64,000 nt of DNA, from positions 15,027 through 79,026 of IMG/VR virus record IMGVR_UViG_3300021178_000012, one strand, 5' to 3'. Made by a program: the position numbers and the translations under genes. Under the pieces are notes generated by a model. It saw only the letters and a program-made list of their open reading frames with translations. It was not told the origin of the DNA and ran no database searches. Below, piece after piece: positions 11,853 to 48,916 of the stretch. Each line of letters begins with the position of its first letter. The stretch's first letter is position 1. Source of the stretch: a virus.

Positions 11853-12115
11853 GCGGCAGCGACGACGAAGACTCGTACTTCACCAACCCCTTAGCCGACG
11901 ACGGCTTCAACGGTACTGGCCCGCTCGAGGAGTGGCTCGAGTGGTTCCGTCAGCCGGGCTTATTCCAAGCCGGGGCGGCCGAGCTCGTGAAGCACGCCGT
12001 GGCTCTCGGCATTCAAAATGGTGTGATCCGCATCAAGCAGACCGAGGCCGGCGACTTCAATCTCGCGCTCCCGAAGGCTTGGATCGAGGAGCAGTTCGCG
12101 CGGCGGTTTCCTTAA
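11849..12115 (+). CDS. Hypothetical protein, paralog of 11619..11852
   Basis: GTGA overlap; ends convergent on the ncRNA array. Confidence 0.65.
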   Translation: MSGSDDEDSYFTNPLADDGFNGTGPLEEWLEWFRQPGLFQAGAAELVKHAVALGIQNGVIRIKQTEAGDFNLALPKAWIEEQFARRFP

Positions 12116-12120
12116 CCAAA

Positions 12121-12188
12121 GGCGCCTCGGGTAAGTTGGTGTTCGTTGGTAATTTTGCGGTAACCAACGAACGTCGACCCGTGACACC
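12121..12188 (-). ncRNA. Y RNA-like RNA 3 (68 nt)
   Basis: Ends pair (GGUGUC/GGCGCC; CGGGU/ACCCG); bulged-C Ro helix GGU-C-GA/CUU-ACC; perfect 10-bp upper stem GUUCGUUGGU/ACCAACGAAC; followed by UUU; downstream of Ro60. Confidence 0.8.
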
Positions 12189-12190
12189 AG

Positions 12191-12263
12191 TTCCGGTTGA
12201 TGGGCTCGAACCACCGACGAGCGCGTTAACAGCGCGCTGCTCTGCCAACTGAGCTAAACCGGA
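12191..12263 (-). tRNA. tRNA-Asn(GTT), no encoded CCA, atypical discriminator A73
   Basis: TCCGGTT-TA-GCTC AGTTGGCA GAGC-A-GCGCG CTGTTAA CGCGC-TCGTC-GGTGG TTCGAGC CCATC-AACCGGA-A: complete cloverleaf. Confidence 0.88.
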
Positions 12264-12270
12264 ACAAAAA

Positions 12271-12401
12271 GGCGATTAGGTAAGTGGCGCCCGTTGGTAA
12301 AACGACGTCTTTCGACGTACGTGTGTGGGTTTCGAACCACTCGGTCAGCCTTTCGGCCTTCCTTTTTTCCAAGGTTAACCAACGAACATCGACCCAATGC
12401 C
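12271..12401 (-). ncRNA. Y RNA-like RNA 2 (131 nt) with multibranch apical domain
   Basis: GGC/GCC and AUUGGGU/ACCUAAU closing helix; GGU-C-GA/CUU-ACC; GUUCGUUGGU/ACCAACGGGC stem; two GAAA tetraloop hairpins and a UUCGAAA T-loop-like hairpin; UUUUU tail. Confidence 0.8.
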
Positions 12402-12404
12402 TAG

Positions 12405-12523
12405 GGGCAGCGGCGGGGCTCGAACCCGCGACCCAGGGGTAACCTTCGTTCGGCGGCCCGCGAGCGGGCAAGTTAATGAGCGAAGACTTTGTCTCTTGCT
12501 CTGCCAACTGAGCTACGCCACCC
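12405..12523 (-). ncRNA. tRNA-shaped RNA with 62-nt expanded anticodon arm containing a Ro-binding-type helix (tRNA/Y RNA hybrid)
   Basis: Acceptor GGUGGCG/CGCUGCC with G-1:C73; D arm identical to the tRNA-Asn; T arm GCGGG UUCGAGC CCCGC; insert contains CUU-GCCCG-CUCG-CGGGC-C-G. Confidence 0.75.
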
Positions 12524-12526
12524 AGA

Positions 12527-12591
12527 AGCGTCGGATAAGGAGCATCGGAAGGGGTCTACCCAAGAGAACCTTCCGACAACGACCCGACACC
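12527..12591 (-). ncRNA. Y RNA-like RNA 1 (65 nt)
   Basis: Starts 6 nt after the Ro60 stop; GGUGUCGGGU/AUCCGACGCU 10-bp helix; bulged C then G opposite CUU; upper stem GUCGGAAGG/CCUUCCGAU. Confidence 0.75.
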
Positions 12592-12597
12592 AGAACC

Positions 12598-14286
12598 TTA
12601 CGCCTCCTCTCGGTGAATTGCAACACCGCGCACAAAATTGGCGATGACGGCGGGCACGTCGGCGCTCATGCCGACGATGTCGAGCATTCCGGCATCGTTC
12701 GGGTCGGCAATCGTGAACGCCGTCGGAGTCATCGCAAGCACGCAGAGCTTCGCCGCGCGCCCACTCTGCTGCCGATACTCGCGCAGCGCCTGAAACGGGT
12801 GAACGTTGCCATGCCAAGTCTCATTGTCCGTGTAAATAGCAAACGCGTCGACATCGAACTTGTTCTTCGTTGCGTACCGCATCGGCAACGAGCAGTCGGT
12901 GCCGCCCATCGGGAGTCGATCAATCGTCCGGATTACGTCGTCGAGACGCTGCTTCGGCGAGATAGCGATCTCCGTGAAGCCGCAGTCGCCTCCGCCCCAT
13001 CGGCCACCCGGTCCGCCACTCGCCGCGGTGAACCCGAAGCAGTGCCAGTTCTTCTCCGTACGTGCCGTAACCATCGCGAGAGCCGCAGAAGCCTCGTGAC
13101 ACGTGAGCGGCATACCAGCGATCGGCGACGTCATCGACCCGGACACGTCGAGGCCGAGTAGCATGTTCTTGCCCGTCGGCTCCACCGTCTCGAAGGCGAG
13201 GTAAAACGCGGCGTCAAGTGCATCGACGATCTCTCGCTGCGGCTCCCACTTGAGCGAGCCCTTCTCACCGTGCCCTTGCTGGTATGTCTTCAACGCCACG
13301 AGCACGCTCATGGGGTGCACGCGCGCCTTCCTGAGAACGTCACGGTCTGCGAGCTTCTCTGCCGTTCTGCGGGTGGCGTTCGACATCGTCTTGAGCAAAC
13401 CAACCTCGGTCATCTTACCCAGATTCCGAATGAGCGCCGTCATCGGCATGCCCAAGAGCAACGCATCCCACACCTCGACGTGATTCTTCCACTGCGTGGG
13501 CAGCATCTCGTGCGTGAGACCGTGCTCGCGGATGATCGCGCAAATGCGCGACTTGTCATCCGTCTTCTGCGCTTCCTCAAACGCCCAGATGAACGGCGGT
13601 AACGTCTCCACCGCGTCGTACTTCGTAACCTTCTCGCCGCGCTTCACATCGCGCTCGCCGTTCTCGATTGGATTGACGACGTACCGGAAAAGGGCCTCGT
13701 GCTGCGGCGTCGGAGCTTTCGGGTGCGCCAAGCGCAAAAGATCTCGATGACTCCACCCGTCGCGCTGGCGATACTTGACCACCTGATTCGCAAGCTTGTC
13801 CGCCGGCTGCGCCGCGTACCACTTGGCAACTGCGTCGCGCAGCCCTCGCCCGAAGCCCCTAAATACCTGCGTGTCGCGCACGAAGTGAAAGAGGTGGGTG
13901 CCGATTCGGCAGACCTTCGGAAGCGCGTCGAGGGCGGCCTTGCGCGTCTTCGAGTCGGATTCGCTCGCGCACATGGCGAGCGCGAAGATCGCAGCGTCGT
14001 TCTTTGGGGCGAGCCCGCGGTACGACACGTCGACGATACGTGCGACGGTTCGAGCACCGTCCTCGCTAGCACACTCCTGTACGACTCGAGCGTTCTCCAC
14101 CGTGAGCGCCTTCTCGGACGCGTAATAGGTGCCTCCGTCAGCGCCGAGGACGAGGAACCGGTCAAGTCGCGACCACTTGTCGACGGTAAAGACGAATCCG
14201 CCAGCGCCGTTAACCTTCTGGTCGCTGCGCGCCGACTCGACCTGTGGCGTCTTCAAGGTAGAAAAATGCTGTCCGTAATCTGTCAT
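12598..14286 (-). CDS. rsr: Ro60/Rsr RNA-binding protein (TROVE + vWA domains)
   Basis: N-terminal NxAGGFVF...RLxRFLVLG.dGGTYY; KYRQRDGWSHRDLLRLAHP; MPMTALIRNLGKMT; vWA motif LDVSGSM, GGTDC, YTDNETW. AGGAGG RBS. Confidence 0.95.
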   Translation of the reverse strand: MTDYGQHFSTLKTPQVESARSDQKVNGAGGFVFTVDKWSRLDRFLVLGADGGTYYASEKALTVENARVVQECASEDGARTVARIVDVSYRGLAPKNDAAIFALAMCASESDSKTRKAALDALPKVCRIGTHLFHFVRDTQVFRGFGRGLRDAVAKWYAAQPADKLANQVVKYRQRDGWSHRDLLRLAHPKAPTPQHEALFRYVVNPIENGERDVKRGEKVTKYDAVETLPPFIWAFEEAQKTDDKSRICAIIREHGLTHEMLPTQWKNHVEVWDALLLGMPMTALIRNLGKMTEVGLLKTMSNATRRTAEKLADRDVLRKARVHPMSVLVALKTYQQGHGEKGSLKWEPQREIVDALDAAFYLAFETVEPTGKNMLLGLDVSGSMTSPIAGMPLTCHEASAALAMVTARTEKNWHCFGFTAASGGPGGRWGGGDCGFTEIAISPKQRLDDVIRTIDRLPMGGTDCSLPMRYATKNKFDVDAFAIYTDNETWHGNVHPFQALREYRQQSGRAAKLCVLAMTPTAFTIADPNDAGMLDIVGMSADVPAVIANFVRGVAIHREEA

Positions 14287-25787: not shown

Positions 25788-26648
25788 ATGGGCTACATGC
25801 ATATCAATAATCTCTACAAGGACCAGCGGATCCTTCTTTTTCGCGAATGCTACGCGCTCGAAAAGATCCACGGTACGTCAGCGCACCTATCGTGGAATCA
25901 AGGCACGCTCACGTTCTCACCCGGAGGTGAGAGCCAGAGCCGATTCGTCAAGGCCGTCGATCACGTGGGCCTCATACCAGCGTTCGAGAAGATGGGTCAC
26001 CCGTCCGTCACTGTCTACGGTGAAGCGTACGGTGGAAGCCAGCAGAAGCAGGCGTGGCGGTACGGATCGTCGCTGAAGTTCGTCGCCTTCGACGTGAAGG
26101 TTGGCGACGTATGGCTCGCAGTCCCGCAAGCGGTACAACTCGTGACGGAACAACTCACACTAGAGTTCGTACACTTCGTCAAGGTGGCAACCGATCTTGC
26201 GGCGTTAGATGCCGAGCGTGACGCCCCGTCTGAGCAGGCTCGGCGCAACGGCATCGAAGGGAGCAAACCGCGCGAAGGTGTCGTCTTGCGTCCGCTCATC
26301 GAGGTGCGCTTCAATGACGACGAGCGGGTCATCGCAAAGCACAAGCGAGCCGAGGAGCGCGAGACGGTGACACCTCGCGAAGTGGTCGACCCGGAGAAGA
26401 TGAAGATTCTATCGGACGCCGAAGCCATCGCCTTCGAATGGGTGACTCCGACGCGGCTTCAGCATGTTCTCGATAAGATCGGCGATGTGGACATGCGTCG
26501 CATGCGAGACGTGATCTCGGCGATGACGGATGATGTGTTGCGCGAGGGTGCCGGAGAGATCGTTGACAGCCGAGAGGCGCGCGCAGCGATCGGTAAGAAG
26601 ACGGCCCAGATCTTCAAGTCATACCTGGAAGCAGCGTTGCGAACATGA
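25788..26648 (+). CDS. ATP-dependent RNA ligase, Rnl2 family
   Basis: Nucleotidyltransferase motifs I EKIHGTS, III YGEAYG, IIIa FVAFDV, IV EGVVLRP, V IAKHK, plus C-terminal helical domain. Confidence 0.85.
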   Translation: MGYMHINNLYKDQRILLFRECYALEKIHGTSAHLSWNQGTLTFSPGGESQSRFVKAVDHVGLIPAFEKMGHPSVTVYGEAYGGSQQKQAWRYGSSLKFVAFDVKVGDVWLAVPQAVQLVTEQLTLEFVHFVKVATDLAALDAERDAPSEQARRNGIEGSKPREGVVLRPLIEVRFNDDERVIAKHKRAEERETVTPREVVDPEKMKILSDAEAIAFEWVTPTRLQHVLDKIGDVDMRRMRDVISAMTDDVLREGAGEIVDSREARAAIGKKTAQIFKSYLEAALRT

Positions 26649-35044: not shown

Positions 35045-35256
35045 TCGCCACCATCGACGCCGACGAGTTGGCCTCCCTGCGCGAGGAACTGAAACGCCTC
35101 ACCGACCGCGAGACGGAGCTGCTCGAGAAGAACAGTGAGCTCCGGTTCGAGCTTCAGTCGATGCGTTCCATCTCGGTCTTCATGCGCGACCTCGAGAAGC
35201 ATCTCGCCGAAGGACTCGAGCAATGCATCACCGAGTGCGCGAAGGGGCGGCCGTGA
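35041..35256 (+). CDS. Small coiled-coil protein
   Basis: Coupled ORF. Confidence 0.55.
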   Translation: MIATIDADELASLREELKRLTDRETELLEKNSELRFELQSMRSISVFMRDLEKHLAEGLEQCITECAKGRP

Positions 35257-35828
35257 GTATCCTGGCCGACTCCGCAATCCGCGCCGCGATAGACCGAGGC
35301 GACATCGTCATCGACCCCATGGCGCCGTGGGCGATCGGCTCGAACAGCGTCGACCTGCATCTGTCTAGGCACCTCGCGACGATCGAATGCGACGACCACA
35401 TCACTGGCACGCTGACGACCGAGCGCGAACAGAAGCTCCACCACTTCGACATCGACGACTGCTTCGAGTTGCTTCCTGGCACGCTATACCTTGGCTCGAC
35501 GGTCGAGTGGACGAGTTCGGGCCCGTATGTACCTGTACTCGAAGGAACAAGCGGAGCTGCACGCCTCGGAATATCGGTGCATTGCACGGCCGGCGTCGGG
35601 GATCTTGGATTCGTCGGGGCATGGACATTAGAGATTACGGTGGTAGAGCCGGTCATCGTTTTCGGCGGTGAGCCAATCGCACAACTGCTCTTCCATATTG
35701 TGCAGGGCAAGGTAGAGCATCCGTACGACAAGAAAGTAGGCGGAAGCGGTTACGGCGCCAACCGCGACCCACGCCCGCAGGCTTCGCGCATGTGGCGGAA
35801 GCGCCGATGGCCGGAGCCGTCACGATGA
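35253..35828 (+). CDS. dcd: dCTP deaminase
   Basis: ILADSAI, NSVDLHL, LEGTSGAARLGISVHCTAG.GD.GF.G..TLEI, IAQLLF. Confidence 0.85.
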   Translation: MSILADSAIRAAIDRGDIVIDPMAPWAIGSNSVDLHLSRHLATIECDDHITGTLTTEREQKLHHFDIDDCFELLPGTLYLGSTVEWTSSGPYVPVLEGTSGAARLGISVHCTAGVGDLGFVGAWTLEITVVEPVIVFGGEPIAQLLFHIVQGKVEHPYDKKVGGSGYGANRDPRPQASRMWRKRRWPEPSR

Positions 35829-42952: not shown

Positions 42953-45160
42953 AAGACGAACCTGGACCGATGATCGCGACCGTGGAGGGCATCATCGTCC
43001 TCCGGTGCATGTGCGGCGGGCAGAGATGTCACCACTGCGGGCATATCGCGCACGGCATGTGCTCTAGCCGAGTCCCTCAATGCCCGAAGTGCGGGTGCCC
43101 GCTGGAGATGCCGTTGAACGCCGAGGAGCCGATCCGATGACCACGTACCTCATCCTCCAGCACGACCTCGCATGGGCCCCCGGCACCATCGACTTCGCCG
43201 CCGCCCGCCGGTACACGCTCGAAGAGGCCGAGGACTTCCGTTCGCGCGAGGACCCGCGCTGCGCGATCTTCCCGCTCGGGTTCGCTATCGATTGGTACGA
43301 AGAGGTCGTTGTGGCGCGGACGAGGAGGGATGCGTTGCTCGCGGAGGCGAAGGTGGTCGGAGAGGTGTTGTTCGCGGCGATTCGGGGGGTGGAGGGATGA
43401 TGCGCACATTCATCGAAGCGCTCGACAAGATGCAGGACGTCGAAGCGAAGGCTGAGGTGCTCGCGCGTCAGTCGAGCAAGGCTCGGCGCGATCTGCTCGT
43501 CCTGAAGGAAGCGTACGCGCTCTATTGCGATGATGAACTCGAAAACAAGACGCTGGCGAGGAAGTCGGCCTTCGAGAAGGATCCGCCGTGAACGCCGAGT
43601 ATCGCAGCAAGCTACGCCTGTTCGATGCCTTCGGCATGGAGGTGCCGCCAGGGGAACTCACGAAGGTGCTCGACGCGCTCGAAGCCGTCGAGGCGCTTGC
43701 GCGCAAGGTGGTCCACGATCTTCGCGACCTCGAAGACCCGAGCCAAAACGATCCGTCCGAGGCCGAGTTCGTCGCCCACGTGGAAGCCCTGGAGGCGGCC
43801 TTGGCCGTCGGTAGGTCGTGAAACCGTACAAGTGCGTTTTCTCTGGTTGTACGGGCGGCTGCCACGTTTGTTCTGCTGTTCGCGAGCAGACCGCAAATGC
43901 ATCTTTTCACGCGATGGCGAAGCGTGTTCTGCGTCTAAGGGACCTGGATCCCGAGGCGCGACAGATCGTCGAATGGGCAATGAACTTCACGAGACCTAGA
44001 TTCGACGTGAAGAAGGGTCAGTGGCTTCGGTGACCTACGCCAAGACCACCACGATCTCCGTCGAGAAGACACGCGTCGAACTCGACCGTCTGCTTTCGAA
44101 GCATGGCGCGACGCAGCGGCTCGTGGGCGTCGACGACGCTCGCGGTATTGCCTTCGCCGGCTTCTCGCTCGCTGGGCGTCAGGTGAAGGTACGCGTTCCG
44201 CTGCCTACGAATGCCGATAGAGGAACCGAGAGGCAACTCGAGCAGCGCCAACGCTCCCGGTGGCGTGCCCTTCTCCTGCTCACGAAGGCGAAGCTTGAGG
44301 CGGTGGAGATGGGCGCGTCCACGATTGAGCGCGAGTTCCTCGCCGACATATCGATGCCTGACGGCCGCTCGGTGCACGACACGCTCGCCGAGTCCCTCGA
44401 GAAGGCCTACCTCACCGGCACGATGCGGCCGTTGCTGGGGAGCGGAACGTGACCCCCGCCCGCCGACAGGCCTTCGCCGAGGCCATCGAAGGGGCCCTTA
44501 CCGCTTGGATCGCCCTCCGCGCCCACCCGCGCCTCGCGCCGTACGAATCCCTCCCCGATCTCGAAGCGATCCCGTGCGGCCTCTGTGGAACGAGCACGAC
44601 CGGGTACGCTCACGCGCACTGGCTCAAGGACGACCCGTGGCTCTGCGAACGATGCGCCCGGGGCGAGCTCGCGCCTGCGGAGTTTGCGAAGTACATGGAT
44701 GAGACCGGAGGGCACCCGTGAAGTGCAAGGGCCGGGGACCGGATCGTAAGCCGCGCGGTCGTCGCTATGCCGAGTTCGTCGGCGCGTGGTTGACCAGGGC
44801 ACAGTTGGATGGACTGAACCGGATCCTCAGCGATAGGGAGAACGTGCGCATGTCGGATGTGTTGCGGGAAGCGGTGGATACGTATCTGAAGGAGAAGGGA
44901 GGATCGTGATGGGCGTGCGATGGAACATGATCGGGCTTCGGGTTCCGCCCGAGCTTGAGGCGGAGATCACGTCGGTACGAGATGAGTTGCGCTCAGCGAA
45001 TGCGCGAAGCGTCGGCGGACGCGGCGGCATCAGCACGGCCGCCACGGTGCGGCTTCTCGTATCCATCGCGCTGTCGTGCGACAGGAGCGCATTACGCGAG
45101 AAGCTGCGCGAACGGCCTCGCAAGGACGGCGGGATACGAAAGGGCTTGGTGCCGCGATGA
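42949..45160 (+). other. Small CDSs: 42949-43140, 43137-43400, 43397-43591, 43588-43821, 43818-44033, 44030-44452 (conserved-looking phage protein), 44449-44721, 44718-44909 (RHH-like), 44906-45160 (RHH-like)
   Basis: Continuous tiling; RMSDVLREAV and LRVPPEL...TAATVRLL patterns. Confidence 0.6.
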
Positions 45161-46056
45161 GCGACAACGACGGACCCTACAGCGACGAGGCTGGCGAGAA
45201 CTCCCCGTGGAATCCTCCGAAGGGCGCAATGACTGGCGAGGAGAAGATCGATCACCCCAAGCACTACAACTCGCTCGGCGCGCAATGCTCGAAGTGCGGG
45301 CATCCGATCGAGTGCATCGACGTCACGCGGCACATGTCGTTCAACCTCGGGAACGTCGTGAAATATTGTTGGCGCGAGTCGTTCAAGAACGGCATCGAAG
45401 ACCTGCGCAAGGGCGCCTGGTACCTCGCGGACGAAATCAAGAAGCGCACGCCGTCGCCCATCGAGCAGGCGAAGAACGCGTGGAAGGATTGGACCAAGGA
45501 GGATCGGGCGACGGAGTTGGCGGCGGCGGCGCCGAAGAGCGCAATCGCAGAGGCTTGGGACAAGTCGGAAGATCTTGTAGCGAAGGCTCTCGGTGTTCCG
45601 GGTAAGAACGGAGGCCGCCGCGCAGCGCTTATCTGGTTTCATCAAGCCATGCGTCAGCCCATCCCCTCCACCCCTCAGGTACCGAGCGACGACCGCGTGC
45701 GCCTCCGAGCGCGGCTCATGGCCGAGGAGTTCGTCGAGACGCTGCGGGCGATGTTTCAAAAGGGCCATTGGGCGCTCGCTCAACTAGAGGAGACGTTGAC
45801 TCTGATCGATGAGAAGGTTCCCGTCGAAGTCGACCTTCCCGCGCTCGCCGACGGTCTCGCGGACCAGAAGGTCGTCCTCGAAGGCACCGACCTCGAGTTC
45901 GGGCTCCCGGGCAACGAACTATTCGCTGAGGTGATGCGGGCAAACATGGCGAAAGTGGGCGGAGGGTTCCGTGAGGACGGGAAGGTACAAAAGCCAAAAG
46001 GATGGGTTGGCCCGGACATCGAGGGCGTGTTGCGAAGGGCGGGGTGGAAGCCGTGA
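45157..46056 (+). CDS. DUF3310 domain fused to MazG-like NTP pyrophosphohydrolase
   Basis: IDHPKHYN..IECID..FNLGNVVKYCWR..KNGIEDLRKGAWYL; then LMAEEFVE..LADGLAD..EVMRANMAK..DGKVQKPKGW. Confidence 0.8.
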   Translation: MSDNDGPYSDEAGENSPWNPPKGAMTGEEKIDHPKHYNSLGAQCSKCGHPIECIDVTRHMSFNLGNVVKYCWRESFKNGIEDLRKGAWYLADEIKKRTPSPIEQAKNAWKDWTKEDRATELAAAAPKSAIAEAWDKSEDLVAKALGVPGKNGGRRAALIWFHQAMRQPIPSTPQVPSDDRVRLRARLMAEEFVETLRAMFQKGHWALAQLEETLTLIDEKVPVEVDLPALADGLADQKVVLEGTDLEFGLPGNELFAEVMRANMAKVGGGFREDGKVQKPKGWVGPDIEGVLRRAGWKP

Positions 46057-48143
46057 GAACCGTCATGATCGGAATGCAGTCGGGCACCAAGCTCTTGGCG
46101 GAGCTGGCCGCCTATGCTTCGGTGGTTCTCGAGAAGGACACTCACATCTTCGAGTTCACTGTATCGAAGGACGTCGCCGAGAGCTTCAATCTCGTGAGCG
46201 CAAAGATCGGCGAGCAGAAGCTTCTCGTTGGTCCGGTCCCCATGACGGTGTTTCTCCGCGAAGAGAAGACCGATCTCGAACGGCGCGCGGACGAGGTAGA
46301 GGCGCTGCTTGATGAGATGGACTTGCCGACCGATGGCGGATCCGACTCACCTCTCGTGGCACTCCTGAACGCCCTGCCGGAGCTGCTCGCGCTCATTCCG
46401 CGCAGGATCGAGCCGCCGCCGTTTTCGTACTTCGTGCCGGCGAGGACGCCCATCGTTTTCGAGGTCGAGAACACCACGAGCGAGCCGAAGGTGTTTCGGT
46501 GCGCCTTCGTCGGGCAGGAGATGCCGTGAAACCCATAGCCCGTACCGTCATGGTCAAGAAGGTCCTCCGCGCCACTCAGTCGCCTACGAACAGTGAGCGC
46601 TGGTGCTGCGATCTCGAGTGCGGGCATGAGGTATGGGTCACCAGGCAACGCAGGCCGAAGGAAGCGGGCTGCGGCGAGTGCGTGCGGAAGAAGGAGGAAA
46701 CGTGAGCGACGAAGAAGTCTGTACCGTATGCCATGAAAGCACGGCCTCTCACGAAATAGCCATCTCGTGTCAGAAGACGGTCAAGAAGAAGGAGACGTAC
46801 TCGTACGAGTACAACAAGCCATCCTTCTCGGCCTACTACCTCGTGTGCATGGAATGTGCTGGAAAAATACTCGACGTGAAAATCGACGTGAACCTCACAC
46901 GTCGCTCGAGGAAGCCGTGACCGATACCAAATGGGCCGTGAACGAAGAGTGGCTGAACCGCCTGGCCGTGGCGCTCGGCGAGACCGGGCCGTACGACCCG
47001 GAGACGTTGCCTGAGAAGGCGGAGGCGCTGCGGAACGCGGTACGTCGGATGAATGATCTGCCAGTGCTTTCAACGATCGCCCCGCTGAACGATTGGCGCG
47101 AAGGCAGAGAGTGGAAAGGTGGCGTCGAAGAGATCGTGAGGATTCGTAAGGGTCTCGCGTATTGCATTGATTCGATAGGAATCTTGACGGCACACAAGGA
47201 AAAAATATGAAGCGTCCGTATATCCCGCCAACGGTCGCGCCCGTCGGCCACCTGCACATGATGCAGAACGCGTTCGCGAACGTCGTCTCGTTGCTCCTGA
47301 CCGGGCGGGGCGTCCCGACGGGCTGCTCCTGCGGGCGGTTCGAGTGCCCAACGCTCAAGGCGATCCATTCCTTGGTGAAGGAAGGTACGGAGCGGCTCAG
47401 TGAACAGGCGCGACGGCCCGAACGTCGGGAGATGAACTGATGGACAAGCAGGAGCTTTGGGCGTGGAACGAGGAGTTGAAGACCGAGAACGCGCGTCTCA
47501 AGAACGACCTTACCGCCGCCGTCGACAAACGGCTGACCGAATGTCGAAGACAATTGGCTGCATGCTTCAAGCTCCTAACATCCGACGACCAACTTGCGTC
47601 GTGGTCGGCGTTGCTTGTGATGGTCGAGATCGCTGTGAAGGCCAAGGAGAAGGCCGATCCTACGGACTACGAAGTGCTATCGAACGCAGAACGTCTCGGG
47701 CTAGGCGGATTGGCGCAGAGGCTCGCCGATCTAGAGTCGGAATTTGTCACCGCTGGCGAATACGCTGCCGCACTAGAGAATCGGATCGCCGCGCTCGAAT
47801 CCTGGCGTGGACAGGTGCTTCAGAGGCTTCTAGGAAGAAAGCCGTGAAGAAGGACGCGATAGTTCTCGTTACAGGCGCCGATGCGCGACTGTTTGACGCC
47901 GCGCTCAAGGATACGCGCCCCCGGGTTCGCGATGCGTTTTGGGACATCGCCGCGCCGCTCGCAATCGCGCTCATGTGCCTGTTCGACTTCATCAAAGGAC
48001 ATCACGTGTACGATGTGATTCTTGGCACGGCCAATCTTGTGCTCGTGCTGGTCTATGCGGCGCGACATCTGTCGCATTGGTGGCAGTACAAGAAGGCTCG
48101 TGCGATCGTAGATAGGTTTTTGAGGGAGACCGGGCAGTCGTGA
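46053..48143 (+). other. Hypothetical CDSs: 46053-46529, 46526-46705, 46702-46920, 46917-47210, 47207-47440, 47440-47847, 47844-48143 (membrane)
   Basis: Continuous tiling. Confidence 0.6.
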
Positions 48144-48916
48144 AGTTTTTCCTCGGCACGCATCAGCCGCATTGGCTTCACGACGAACGGTTCGTGGGTG
48201 TGCCGTTATTCATCTCCCGTCGTCGTCTTGCGACGTACAAGACTCTCCCAGTTGCGGAGACAAGATTTGCTCTCGACTCTGGAGGCTTCACTGAGCTTCA
48301 AATGTACGGGCGTTGGACATTGTCCGCGAGCCAGTACGCGGAGGAGGTTGGACGGTTCGTTCGGTTTTATGGAAGAAAACTGTGCTGGGTAGCCCCGCAA
48401 GATTGGATGTGCGAACCGCTCGTCATCTCGGGAGGCAATGCATCACGAGGCATCGTCTTCAAGGGTACGCGACTCAACGTGGAGGAGCACCAGCGTCGAA
48501 CCGTTCGCAACTTCATCGAGTTACGTCGGCTTCTTGGAGGACGTGTGATCCCAGTCCTTCAAGGATGGAAGCTCGCTGACTATTGGAGATGCCAGGAGAT
48601 CTACAAGCAGGCCGGCGTCGATCTCGAGGACTGTGAGACGGTTGGCGTAGGCTCGGTTTGCAGACGTCAGTCGACCAATGATGCGACGCAGATCATGTCG
48701 ACGCTCGCGGTGGATGGGCTTCGCTTGCATGGTTTTGGATTCAAGAAGGGAGGCCTCAAGAACTGCCACAGTTTCATGGTGAGCGCCGACTCGACCGCTT
48801 GGAGCGACACAGCCAAGGGCGGCGGCGTTCACGTGCTCGCGACCGACAAATGGCGAGAGTGGCACGAGCTGATCGGGAATCGGACATGGGAAGAGTTGAG
48901 GAGGGCGGGGTTATGA
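48140..48916 (+). CDS. tRNA-guanine transglycosylase-like (DpdA-like) base-exchange enzyme
   Basis: FALDSGGFTEL, APQDWMCEP, IPVLQGW, VGVGSVCRRQ, LHGFGFK, SADSTAWS. Confidence 0.75.
   Translation: MKFFLGTHQPHWLHDERFVGVPLFISRRRLATYKTLPVAETRFALDSGGFTELQMYGRWTLSASQYAEEVGRFVRFYGRKLCWVAPQDWMCEPLVISGGNASRGIVFKGTRLNVEEHQRRTVRNFIELRRLLGGRVIPVLQGWKLADYWRCQEIYKQAGVDLEDCETVGVGSVCRRQSTNDATQIMSTLAVDGLRLHGFGFKKGGLKNCHSFMVSADSTAWSDTAKGGGVHVLATDKWREWHELIGNRTWEELRRAGL

What the first reader, a model, noticed from the sequence alone, without database searches (positions are those of the whole stretch)
12121..14286. Virus-encoded Ro60 followed by a gap-free array of Y RNAs punctuated by tRNA-shaped units
Seen: after the Ro60 stop, the minus strand carries five structured RNAs spaced only ~3-7 nt apart: Y1 (12527-12591), tRNA-like (12405-12523), Y2 (12271-12401), tRNA-Asn (12191-12263), Y3 (12121-12188). 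All three Y-like RNAs pair their ends and show the same bulged-C helix (GGU-C-G / CUU-A[C/U]C); Y2 and Y3 share GGGUCGAYGUUCGUUGGUUA. Established: Ro60/Rsr binds Y RNAs through a bulged-C helix, bacterial Y RNA genes lie beside rsr, and some phages carry rsr plus a Y RNA. Inference: this is one polycistronic precursor in which the tRNA folds recruit RNase P and 3'-processing nucleases to cut out three different Y RNAs (tRNA punctuation), giving one Ro60 several interchangeable RNA adaptors. I do not recognise this alternating architecture from described loci.
Basis: partly seen in the sequence, partly recalled or inferred. Interest (0 to 1): 0.92.

Follow-up and report, generated by a model that had tools for sequence, protein, structure and literature searches.

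The report
Phage Ro60 with four-Y-RNA array
A phage-like element carries a true Ro60 gene followed, with almost no gaps, by four RNAs that share the Ro60-binding helix plus one real tRNA; one of the four is a complete tRNA shape whose anticodon loop is replaced by that helix, a layout of Y RNA that I could not find described but that also occurs beside Ro60 genes in many bacteria.

Summary
On the minus strand, a TROVE+vWA Ro60 gene (12598-14286) is followed by five close-packed RNAs with spacers of 2-6 nt: Y1, a tRNA-shaped unit, Y2, tRNA-Asn(GUU) and Y3.

- **A fourth Ro60 ligand.** The "tRNA-like" unit is more than punctuation. It has a canonical acceptor, D arm, 5-bp anticodon stem and T arm. 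In place of the anticodon loop it carries a tetraloop-capped, bulged-C Ro helix. This is a circular permutation of YrlA, which I call tY.
- **Motif specificity.** The 5'-strand motif occurs exactly 4 times in the window, against 0.09 expected.
- **Spread of tY.** A covariance model finds tY on the Ro60 strand in all 4 closest relatives. It also finds it in at least 24 of 80 viral and 42 of 80 cellular Ro60 loci, with strong covariation.
- **Link to rsr.** In three whole myxobacterial genomes, all 6 long hits lie at rsr. There rsr sits inside giant tRNA arrays.
- **tRNA punctuation.** This is plausible here, because the spacers are tiny, no promoter is predicted and C74 is conserved. It is not general: about 74% of 235 linear Y candidates have no tRNA-type neighbour within 100 nt.

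I rate it a new variant of a known kind. This scan has already noted related Ro60-like/RNA arrays on other DNA.

The parts
12598..14286 (-). Ro60/Rsr gene (562 aa; TROVE ring plus vWA domain with the DxSxS MIDAS motif)
   Evidence: Pfam PF25045 at 2.8e-61 and PF05731 at 8.6e-51. D380, S382 and S384 are invariant across 25 homologues. The nearest relatives are uncultured phage-like contigs at 64-75% identity, then Sorangium and Polyangiaceae at about 60%.
12527..12591 (-). Y1: linear Y RNA. The terminal helix is formed by its 5' and 3' ends, followed by the bulged-C Ro helix, a second helix and a small apical hairpin.
   Evidence: Fold energy -28.3 kcal/mol, z -2.5. Motif match at 12567-12585. 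The strands GGGUCG and CUUAUCC pair, and the second helix covaries with those of relatives.
12404..12523 (-). tY: a tRNA-topology Y RNA. It has a 7-bp acceptor stem (plus a G-1:C73 pair), a D arm, a 5-position anticodon stem (3 standard pairs in the window's copy), a 5-nt variable loop and a T arm. The anticodon loop is replaced by the Ro module.
   Evidence: Rfam tRNA at 37.2 bits with a 54-nt insert. Model R1 scores it 117 bits. Homologues exist in L008-L011 and in more than 60 further loci. Covariation is shown. There is no U33 and no 7-nt loop, so it is not a decoding tRNA.
12441..12488 (-). Capped Ro-binding module inside tY. The order is second-helix strand, CUUGCCCG, CUCG tetraloop, CGGGC-C-G with the bulged C, then the return strand of the second helix ending in GGUU.
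   Evidence: Read directly. Motif match at 12441-12459. Relatives cap the same helix with GNRA or UUCG tetraloops. Of 108 long units, 75 fold this way without constraints, with 72 distinct second-helix sequences.
12270..12402 (-). Y2: linear Y RNA. Its internal module holds a GAAA-capped hairpin, a T-arm-like hairpin (GUGG/UUCGAAAC/CCAC) and one further hairpin.
   Evidence: Fold energy -49.1 kcal/mol, z -2.9, with 0 of 200 shuffles as stable. Motif match at 12377-12395. L010:4624-4722 has the same design, with a canonical T arm.
12191..12263 (-). tRNA-Asn (anticodon GUU), the only ordinary tRNA in the whole 83.6-kb record
   Evidence: ARAGORN. Rfam tRNA at 62.6 bits. The whole record holds only this tRNA and tY as tRNA-type genes.
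12121..12188 (-). Y3: minimal linear Y RNA, consisting of little more than the terminal helix, the Ro helix and a 12-nt loop
   Evidence: Rfam RF01656 at 43.5 bits, above its gathering score of 38, E 1.9e-7. Fold z -4.5. Motif match at 12162-12180. A convergent ORF ends at 12115.

Best explanation
This is a compact Ro60-Y RNA operon carried by a phage-like element whose host is probably in the Polyangia (Myxococcota).

**Transcription and products.** One transcript probably runs from the Ro60 gene through about 480 nt that encode four RNAs, each carrying the same Ro60-binding bulged-C helix on a different body:
- Y1, a simple hairpin;
- tY, a full tRNA body;
- Y2, which carries a T-arm-like hairpin;
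- Y3, minimal.

The array also holds one real tRNA-Asn.

**What tY is.** In tY the 5' and 3' ends form a normal acceptor stem, and the Ro helix sits, capped by a tetraloop, where the anticodon loop would be. This is the circular permutation of YrlA, whose ends lie in the Ro helix and whose acceptor stem is capped.

**Processing (inferred).** RNase P and the tRNA 3'-end machinery cut at tY and at tRNA-Asn. That would create the 3' end of Y1, both ends of Y2 and the 5' end of Y3. Other nucleases, or exonuclease trimming that stops at Ro60-protected helices, must make the 5' end of Y1 and the 3' end of Y3.

**Function (inferred from Deinococcus, Salmonella and Thermus phage phiLo).** Each RNA docks on the outer surface of the Ro60 ring and lends it a different partner-binding module, for example for host PNPase or for tRNA-binding enzymes. 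This would redirect RNA decay or repair during infection.

**Shown:** gene and RNA identities, conservation, covariation and exclusive linkage to rsr.
**Inferred:** co-transcription, cleavage sites, Ro60 binding and function.
For: **Identity of the parts**
- Ro60 domains.
- Four copies of the 5'-strand motif against 0.09 expected, all on the Ro60 strand.
- The same motif occurs in 109 of the 171 fetched loci, nearly always on the Ro60 strand.
- Y3 passes the Rfam stem-bulge RNA gathering score.
- The Ro helices resemble the metazoan consensus on both strands.

**The tY class**
- All four closest relatives (Ro60 64-75% identical) have a 500-660-nt gene-free gap after Ro60.
- Those gaps are filled with linear Y and tY units: lin-tY-lin-tY in L011 and lin-tY-lin-tY-tY in L009.
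- Model R1 finds 44 long units in viral loci and 64 in cellular loci.
- On the viral alignment, 96.4% of cells are paired against 64% in shuffles. 26 of 28 pairs change on both sides. The covariation score is 0.69, against 0.16 in shuffles and about 0.1 when partners are slid.
- 75 of 108 inserts fold without constraints into the capped helix plus an enclosing helix, with 72 different sequences.
- In Sorangium, Minicystis and Chondromyces whole genomes (12-16 Mb), all 6 long hits lie in the rsr locus. The other hits are ordinary 75-77-nt tRNAs.

**Processing**
- Spacers are 2-6 nt.
- No promoter or terminator is predicted inside the array.
- tY keeps the canonical tRNA core (U8, A14, G18G19, UUCGA in the T loop, a 5-nt variable loop).
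- C74 is kept in about 80% of tY units, against about 95% of neighbouring tRNAs.
- tY units directly abut real tRNAs in many arrays.
- M. smegmatis YrlA is cut by RNase P and receives CCA in vivo, and its Y RNAs come from one precursor (PMC4201824).
- Phage phiLo Ro60 binds two phage-encoded Y-like RNAs and host PNPase (PMC12135203).
Against: - There are no expression, end-mapping or binding data for any of these RNAs.
- The proposed tY fold is not the thermodynamic optimum for the window's copy: -32.7 kcal/mol against an MFE of -48.9. The MFE also misses the cloverleaf of the real tRNA-Asn.
- The window's tY anticodon stem has 2 A-C mismatches in 5 positions.
- The covariation was counted on alignments fitted to my own model, so it leans towards that structure.
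- The window's Ro helices lack the CGAA of the published GNCGAA motif, although relatives have it.
- tRNA punctuation is dispensable elsewhere. L008 and L010 have adjacent linear Y RNAs. About 74% of 235 linear Y candidates have no tRNA-type unit within 100 nt (a regex-based detection in which the tRNA-type list is incomplete).
- Encoded CCA is rarer in tY (9-12%) than in neighbouring tRNAs (about 38%).
- The promoter scan covers only sigma-70-type consensus sites.
- No capsid or terminase was found, so viral identity rests on the IMG/VR classification and on replication and recombination genes.
Confidence: 0.72

Rival explanations
1. The RNAs are real Ro60 partners, but the tRNA-type units play no part in releasing them. 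Ends would be made by RNase E-type cuts and by exonuclease trimming up to Ro60-protected helices. tRNA-Asn would be a hitchhiker captured with the cassette from a host tRNA array.
For: - Y1 has no tRNA upstream of it.
- Adjacent linear Y RNAs occur in L008 and L010.
- There are long tandem linear-Y arrays without tRNAs, for example L020, and 175 of 235 candidates have no tRNA-type unit within 100 nt.
- Salmonella YrlA and YrlB are released from an mRNA that contains no tRNAs (own knowledge of Chen et al. 2013, as cited in PMC4201824).
- Cellular rsr genes sit in tRNA arrays, so a tRNA is easily co-captured.
Against: - The two tRNA-type units would still be cut by RNase P and the 3'-end enzymes in any cell, which necessarily severs the flanking Y RNAs.
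- Spacers of only 2-3 nt, with 'CU' after both units, look selected.
- Lin-tY alternation recurs in L009 and L011.
- tRNA-Asn is the only tRNA in the record.
Confidence: 0.2
2. The array serves mainly as a counter-defence or RNA-repair device. The tRNA-shaped and T-arm-bearing RNAs would act as decoys or guides for host tRNA-targeting nucleases, or for the phage RNA ligase, with Ro60 as chaperone. This differs from the PNPase-tethering adaptor model.
For: - An RNA ligase (PF09414) is encoded at 25788-26648 in the same element.
- rsr is linked to rtcBA RNA repair in Salmonella (PMC7790460, listed).
- rsr is embedded in tRNA arrays in many genomes.
- TROVE genes sit in 20 of 29 archaeal tRNA clusters (PMC6333295).
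Against: - tY has no anticodon loop, the usual target of anticodon nucleases.
- The ligase gene is 13 kb away on the other strand.
- No direct evidence exists.
- This reading is compatible with the structural reading rather than exclusive of it.
Confidence: 0.12
3. The 119-nt unit is a tRNA gene with an intron or insertion, or a decaying pseudo-tRNA, and its likeness to the Ro helix is coincidental.
For: Rfam calls it a tRNA with an insert. Its anticodon stem is imperfect in the window.
Against: - The insert carries the exact array motif.
- It is conserved with compensatory changes and stable tetraloops across more than 100 units.
- No anticodon-loop residues such as U33 remain.
- Long units occur only at rsr in three whole genomes.
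- Bacterial tRNA introns are group I introns of 200 nt or more (own knowledge).
Confidence: 0.02
4. The region is protein-coding (ORFs 12226-12507 and 12473-12817 on the minus strand), or the units are separately transcribed genes.
For: ORFs of 93 and 114 aa are listed mechanically.
Against: - This is a high-GC genome with many spurious ORFs.
- Gene callers left the equivalent gap empty in 4 of 4 relatives.
- Conservation is at the level of RNA structure.
- Spacers of 2-6 nt leave no room for promoters.
Confidence: 0.03

Closest known systems
YrlA-type bacterial and phage Y RNAs with Rsr (Rfam RF02553; Chen et al. 2014, PMC4201824)
   Same: - Encoded next to Ro60 on the same strand.
- A Ro-binding helix joined to a tRNA mimic with D and T arms.
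- Several Y RNAs per locus, processed from one precursor.
- M. smegmatis YrlA is cut by RNase P and receives CCA.
   Different: - YrlA runs Ro 5' strand, T arm, capped acceptor, D arm, Ro 3' strand. tY runs acceptor 5' strand, D arm, capped Ro helix, T arm, acceptor 3' strand, which is a circular permutation.
- RF02553 scores only 18 bits here, against a gathering score of 69.
- Both strands of the Ro helix are conserved here. In YrlA only the 5' strand is recognisable.
Deinococcus radiodurans Yrn1
   Same: Both strands of the Ro helix are retained. It has a T arm, and its D to T order matches that of a tRNA (PMC4201824). Y2 resembles it in having a linear Ro helix with an internal T-arm-like hairpin.
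   Different: In Yrn1 the Ro helix occupies the acceptor position and an anticodon-like arm is kept. In tY the acceptor stem is real and the Ro helix occupies the anticodon position.
Metazoan Y RNAs and nematode stem-bulge RNAs (Rfam RF00019, RF01656)
   Same: A terminal helix, a bulged-C helix of the GGUCCGA type opposite CUUGACC, and a following GUUAUC-like stretch. Y3 passes the RF01656 gathering score.
   Different: - The metazoan RNAs are made by Pol III in eukaryotes and are not arrayed behind Ro60.
- They have no tRNA-like module.
- RF00019 gave no hit here.
Thermus phage phiLo Ro60 with Yrl1 and Yrl2 (PMC12135203)
   Same: A phage-encoded Ro60 with more than one phage-encoded Y-like RNA beside the gene. 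Binding to the RNAs and complexes with host PNPase have been shown.
   Different: - phiLo has two RNAs, both upstream of the gene.
- No tRNA-topology unit and no interleaved tRNA are reported.
tRNA-punctuated processing (mitochondrial polycistrons; MALAT1-mascRNA; gammaherpesvirus tRNA-miRNA units)
   Same: tRNA folds inside a longer transcript direct RNase P and RNase Z cuts, which liberate the neighbouring RNAs (own knowledge).
   Different: Here the link is only inferred from spacing, and one of the 'punctuation marks' is itself a functional Ro60 ligand.
TROVE genes inside tRNA gene clusters (archaea; Morgado and Vicente 2019, PMC6333295)
   Same: A Ro60-family gene embedded in dense tRNA arrays, as seen here in 73 of 80 cellular loci.
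   Different: That paper reports the gene association only. It does not describe Y RNAs or tRNA-shaped Ro-helix RNAs.

Membership tests
Ro60/Rsr protein | TROVE (HEAT-repeat ring) domain followed by a vWA domain | tested here: met
   PF05731 at 8.6e-51 and PF25045 at 2.8e-61, both far above their cut-offs.
Ro60/Rsr protein | MIDAS DxSxS motif in the vWA domain | tested here: met
   D380, S382 and S384 are invariant in the 25-sequence alignment that includes the window's protein.
Y RNA (general) | The 5' and 3' ends pair, and next to them lies a conserved helix with a bulged C | tested here: met
   Y1, Y2 and Y3 meet this. The motif occurs 4 times against 0.09 expected. Relatives covary. tY has the helix but not the end-pairing, because its helix is capped.
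Y RNA (general) | Bound by Ro60 | not testable with these tools
   Genomic linkage only: same strand, adjacent to the gene, and exclusive to rsr loci in three whole genomes.
Y RNA (general) | Match to a curated Y-type covariance model | tested here: inconclusive
   Y3 passes RF01656 (43.5 bits against 38). Y1, Y2 and tY match no Y-type Rfam model, and RF00019 gave no hit.
YrlA (RF02553) | Score at or above the gathering threshold, with T arm, capped acceptor stem and D arm in that order between the Ro strands | tested here: not met
   The best score is 18 bits against 69, on a forced alignment. tY has the inverse connectivity.
tRNA (decoding) | Cloverleaf core with conserved D-loop and T-loop residues | tested here: met
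   tRNA-Asn scores 62.6 bits. tY scores 37.2 bits, above the gathering score of 29.
tRNA (decoding) | A 7-nt anticodon loop with U33 and an anticodon | tested here: not met
   This is met for tRNA-Asn (GUU). tY does not meet it: a 54-nt insert replaces the loop and U33 is absent. tY is therefore not filed as a tRNA.
tRNA-punctuated polycistron | Same-strand units contiguous with tRNA folds, with no room for internal promoters | tested here: met
   Spacers of 3, 2, 6 and 2 nt. No promoter-like or terminator-like site is predicted in the array.
tRNA-punctuated polycistron | Mature ends of the neighbouring RNAs coincide with RNase P and 3'-processing sites | not testable with these tools
   No RNA data are available. 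Indirect support for tRNA-type processing: C74 is kept in about 80% of tY units. Against it as a general rule: most linear Y candidates lack a tRNA-type neighbour.

The most novel reading that the evidence does not exclude
tY RNAs are matured like tRNAs to a free CCA end and are perhaps even aminoacylated. They would then serve as tRNA-shaped handles that carry Ro60 onto tRNA-binding machinery such as RNase P, the CCA-adding enzyme, EF-Tu and the ribosome, or RNA-repair ligases. On this reading the embedding of rsr in tRNA arrays across Polyangia, Verrucomicrobiota and phages reflects a dedicated Ro60-based tRNA surveillance or repair system, which this phage has miniaturised for use during infection.
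Probability: 0.12. Interest if true: 0.85.

Novelty: new variant of a known kind. Interest (0 to 1): 0.62.

Why it matters
Ro60 and Y RNAs are conserved from bacteria to humans and are a major autoantigen, yet the purpose of the variable Y RNA modules remains largely open.

- **One gene, four bodies.** This locus shows a single Ro60 gene served by four RNAs that share the binding helix but have different bodies.
- **A third wiring.** It reveals a third way to join a tRNA body to the Ro helix, with an open acceptor end and a capped Ro helix. This wiring is widespread but absent from Rfam and from the papers I could search.
- **Consequences of the open end.** Because tY keeps a real acceptor end, it should enter the tRNA maturation pathway. 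That makes the long-standing question of why bacterial Y RNAs mimic tRNA directly testable.
- **Experimental access.** Cultured Sorangium, Chondromyces and Minicystis strains carry tY, and the isolated Gordonia phage Cashline has a weaker tY-like unit.
- **A possible wider role.** The embedding of rsr in giant tRNA arrays hints at a broader link between Ro60 and tRNA metabolism.

Tried and rejected
1. **tRNA-His mimicry through G-1:C73.** All five closest tY units have G-1:C73. Across the family, though, the -1:73 positions pair about as often in ordinary neighbouring tRNAs (56-79%) as in tY (81-84%). I dropped this idea.
2. **The GCCGAAAG stretch in Y2 as the published GNCGAA Ro motif.** It is the GAAA tetraloop of a hairpin that L010 also has, not the Ro site. 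The real Ro strand is GGGUCG.
3. **An intron-containing or pseudo-tRNA.** Rejected; see the rival explanations.
4. **Protein-coding ORFs in the array.** Rejected.
5. **Exact 20-mer search of IMG/VR.** The sequence shared by Y2 and Y3 gave 0 hits. Blastn against GenBank phages matched only the Ro60 ORF.
6. **Origin of tRNA-Asn.** An alignment with tRNA-Asn genes from myxobacterial rsr loci was uninformative.
7. **MFE folding of tY and tRNA-Asn.** It does not return cloverleaves, so it is neither usable nor decisive for tRNA-type RNAs.
8. **Capsid and terminase Pfam searches of the record.** No hits.
9. **Supplementary tables of Chen et al. 2014 and two reviews (PMC10870794, PMC6047535).** These were not held. 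I could not check whether Sorangium-type loci were listed there.
10. **The 2026 preprint on three families of tRNA mimics.** It concerns unrelated RNAs.


Full report
**What is in the window.** On the minus strand, 12598-14286 encodes a 562-aa protein with the two Ro60 domains: TROVE at 8.6e-51 and vWA_Ro60 at 2.8e-61. The MIDAS residues are invariant among homologues.

The 480 nt between its stop codon and the end of a convergent ORF at 12115 hold five units:
- Y1, 12527-12591;
- a 119-nt tRNA-like unit, 12405-12523;
- Y2, 12270-12402;
- tRNA-Asn(GUU), 12191-12263;
- Y3, 12121-12188.

The spacers are 3, 2, 6 and 2 nt. Y3 passes the gathering score of Rfam RF01656, the nematode stem-bulge RNAs that are Y RNA homologues (43.5 bits against 38). 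Y1, Y2 and Y3 fold with paired ends, at z-scores of -2.5, -2.9 and -4.5.

The record is an IMG/VR virus contig of 83.6 kb, estimated half complete. It carries integrase, replication initiator, helicase, exonuclease/Sak4, RNA ligase, DpdA and nucleotide-metabolism genes. I found no capsid or terminase match. tY and tRNA-Asn are the only tRNA-type genes in the whole record.

**The point this finding missed.** The 54-nt "insert" of the tRNA-like unit is itself a Ro-binding helix written in permuted order. The 3'-strand motif (CUUGCCCG) comes first, then a CUCG tetraloop, then the 5'-strand motif (CGGGC-C-G, with the bulged C). A second helix encloses all of this, and the module ends in GGUU.

The pattern GGGYCG-NN-G-N6-GGTT therefore occurs four times in the window, not three. 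All four copies lie in the array on the Ro60 strand. The expected count is 0.09, and 0 of 100 shuffles reached 4.

The rest of the unit is a canonical class I tRNA body:
- a 7-bp acceptor stem;
- U8, A14 and G18G19;
- a 5-bp anticodon stem;
- a 5-nt variable loop;
- a UUCGA T loop.

I call this unit tY. I had reached it independently.

**Relatives.** The closest Ro60 proteins (64-75% identity) come from uncultured phage-like contigs. The next group, at about 60%, is Sorangium and Polyangiaceae. This suggests, but does not prove, a myxobacterial host.

All four closest loci have a 500-660-nt gene-free gap after Ro60. Those gaps are filled with the same two kinds of unit:

| Locus | Order of units |
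|---|---|
| L011 | lin, tY, lin, tY |
| L009 | lin, tY, lin, tY, tY |
| L008 | lin, lin, tY, tY, tY |
| L010 | lin, a D-arm-less tRNA-like unit carrying an unpermuted Y helix, lin, tY |

In these tY units the capped helix ends in GNRA or UUCG tetraloops of varying stem length. The second helix has a different sequence in every copy but always pairs.

**A family-level test.** I built covariance model R1 from five tY units. I searched it against 80 viral and 80 cellular Ro60 loci gathered with a Ro60 alignment.
- Full-length matches of 110-170 nt occur in at least 24 viral and 42 cellular loci, almost always on the Ro60 strand.
- The cellular loci span Sorangium, Polyangium, Minicystis, Chondromyces, Kofleriaceae, Haliangiales, Verrucomicrobiota, Armatimonadota, a Brocadia and a Chloroflexi genome.
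- On the viral alignment, 96.4% of cells pair against 64% in shuffles. 26 of 28 pairs change on both sides. The covariation score is 0.69, against 0.16 shuffled and about 0.1 with slid partners. The capped Ro helix is 93% paired.
- Caveat: that alignment was fitted to my model.
- Independently of the model, 75 of 108 inserts fold without constraints into the capped helix plus an enclosing helix, with 72 distinct helix sequences.
- In three complete or draft myxobacterial genomes of 12-16 Mb, all six long hits lie within the rsr locus. Every other hit is a 75-77-nt tRNA (only the top 150 candidates per genome were scored).
- The exact 5'-strand motif is present in 109 of the 171 fetched loci.

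**Context in cells.** ARAGORN finds 780 tRNAs in 73 of the 80 cellular loci. In Polyangia, rsr sits in the middle of arrays of 20-30 tRNA genes, with tY units interleaved. In L093, for example, the order is tY, tY, Asp, tY, Arg, tY, Asp, Trp, Ala and onward, with some spacers of 0-7 nt. The window's array is therefore a miniature of a widespread cellular arrangement, not a viral invention. A link between TROVE genes and tRNA clusters has been reported for archaea, without any RNA analysis (PMC6333295).

**How it probably works.** Co-transcription with Ro60 is inferred from three things:
- shared orientation;
- spacers too short for promoters;
- the absence of predicted promoters or terminators in the array (that scan covers sigma-70-type sites only).

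tY and tRNA-Asn have everything RNase P and the 3'-end enzymes recognise. C74 is kept in about 80% of tY units, against about 95% of neighbouring tRNAs and a background near 30%. Encoded CCA is rarer in tY (9-12%) than in those tRNAs (about 38%).

Cuts at these two units would create the 3' end of Y1, both ends of Y2 and the 5' end of Y3. There is precedent in M. smegmatis, where YrlA is cut by RNase P and receives CCA in vivo, and YrlA and YrlB come from one precursor (PMC4201824).

Function is inferred from known systems. Y RNAs tether Ro60 to PNPase in Deinococcus and Salmonella. Phage phiLo Ro60 binds two phage-encoded Y-like RNAs and host PNPase (PMC12135203).

**Limits of the tRNA-punctuation idea.**
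- Y1's 5' end has only the Ro60 stop codon upstream, and Y3's 3' end has no tRNA after it.
- L008 and L010 have linear Y RNAs directly adjacent to one another.
- A regex-plus-pairing survey found 235 linear Y candidates in 82 loci. Only 34 abut a tRNA-type unit within 10 nt, and 175 have none within 100 nt. L020, for instance, has about 11 tandem linear Y RNAs. That detector is crude and its list of tRNA-type units is incomplete.

tRNA-type processing is therefore a plausible local contributor, not the general release mechanism.

**Weak points.**
- No RNA or binding data exist.
- The proposed tY fold is 16 kcal/mol above the MFE for the window's copy. MFE folding also misfolds the real tRNA-Asn.
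- The window's anticodon stem has two A-C mismatches.
- The window's Ro strands read CGUU, CGAU, CGAC and CGCC, where relatives have the published CGAA.

**Comparison with what is known.** Chen et al. 2014 describe two wirings:
- YrlA, with its ends in the Ro helix and the order T arm, capped acceptor, D arm;
- Yrn1, with the Ro helix at the acceptor position and D to T order.

tY is a third wiring, with a real open acceptor end and a capped Ro helix at the anticodon position. RF02553 does not recognise it (18 bits against 69).

Among held papers, a search for YrlA, three term searches combining Y RNA, Ro60, Rsr or TROVE with phage, tRNA or tRNA-array terms, and a 2026 preprint on tRNA mimics did not turn up this form. 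Two reviews and the 2014 supplement were not available.

This scan has repeatedly noted arrays of handle-bearing, sometimes tRNA-shaped RNAs beside divergent Ro60-like (DUF2828-type) genes in other phages. The case here differs in having a bona fide Ro60 and the canonical, metazoan-like helix.

**Verdict.** This is a new variant of a known kind, of solid but not exceptional interest.

Noticed in passing
L093, L097-L113, L129, L145, L161 (cellular Ro60 loci): In Sorangium, Polyangium, Minicystis, Chondromyces, Kofleriaceae and Haliangiales, rsr lies inside giant same-strand tRNA arrays. There are 780 tRNAs in 73 of 80 loci, within flanks of 2.5 kb. tY units are interleaved among them and are often followed by tRNA-Asp.
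   Followed up: partly
window 25788-26648 (+): An RNA ligase gene (PF09414, 1.1e-11; phrog_548) lies in the same element as Ro60. This is a possible RNA-repair context.
   Followed up: no
window 48140-48916 (+), 35223-35828 (+), 45076-46056 (+): DpdA (PF23859, 1.7e-58; the 7-deazaguanine DNA-modification family), a dCTP deaminase and a gene combining a PRA-PH (MazG-like) pyrophosphohydrolase domain with DUF3310. The element probably modifies its DNA.
   Followed up: no
L010:4494-4632: A D-arm-less tRNA-like unit. An 8-bp acceptor-type stem and a canonical T arm enclose a linear, unpermuted Y helix. This is yet another wiring of the same parts, and the MFE fold agrees.
   Followed up: partly
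L020:180-2269 (IMG/VR contig upstream of its Ro60): About 11 tandem linear Y RNA candidates precede one Ro60 gene with no tRNAs between them. Published loci have 2-4 Y RNAs.
   Followed up: no
L006:4071-4272 (-), Gordonia phage Cashline, upstream of gene 37 (Ro-like): A weaker tY-like unit (R1 at 26 bits) with a short acceptor stem, in an isolated and cultivable actinophage. No RNA is annotated there.
   Followed up: partly
L004:2012-2074 (+): A Pistol ribozyme match (RF02679, 60.8 bits against a gathering score of 34.5) about 1 kb upstream of a viral Ro60 gene. The flanks also hold three linear Y RNAs and a YrlA-like hit of 35 bits.
   Followed up: no
window 12189-12190 and 12403-12404 (-): In the window, both tRNA-type units are followed by the same dinucleotide, CU (C74 U75), directly before the next Y RNA's terminal helix. 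C74 is kept in about 80% of tY units family-wide.
   Followed up: partly
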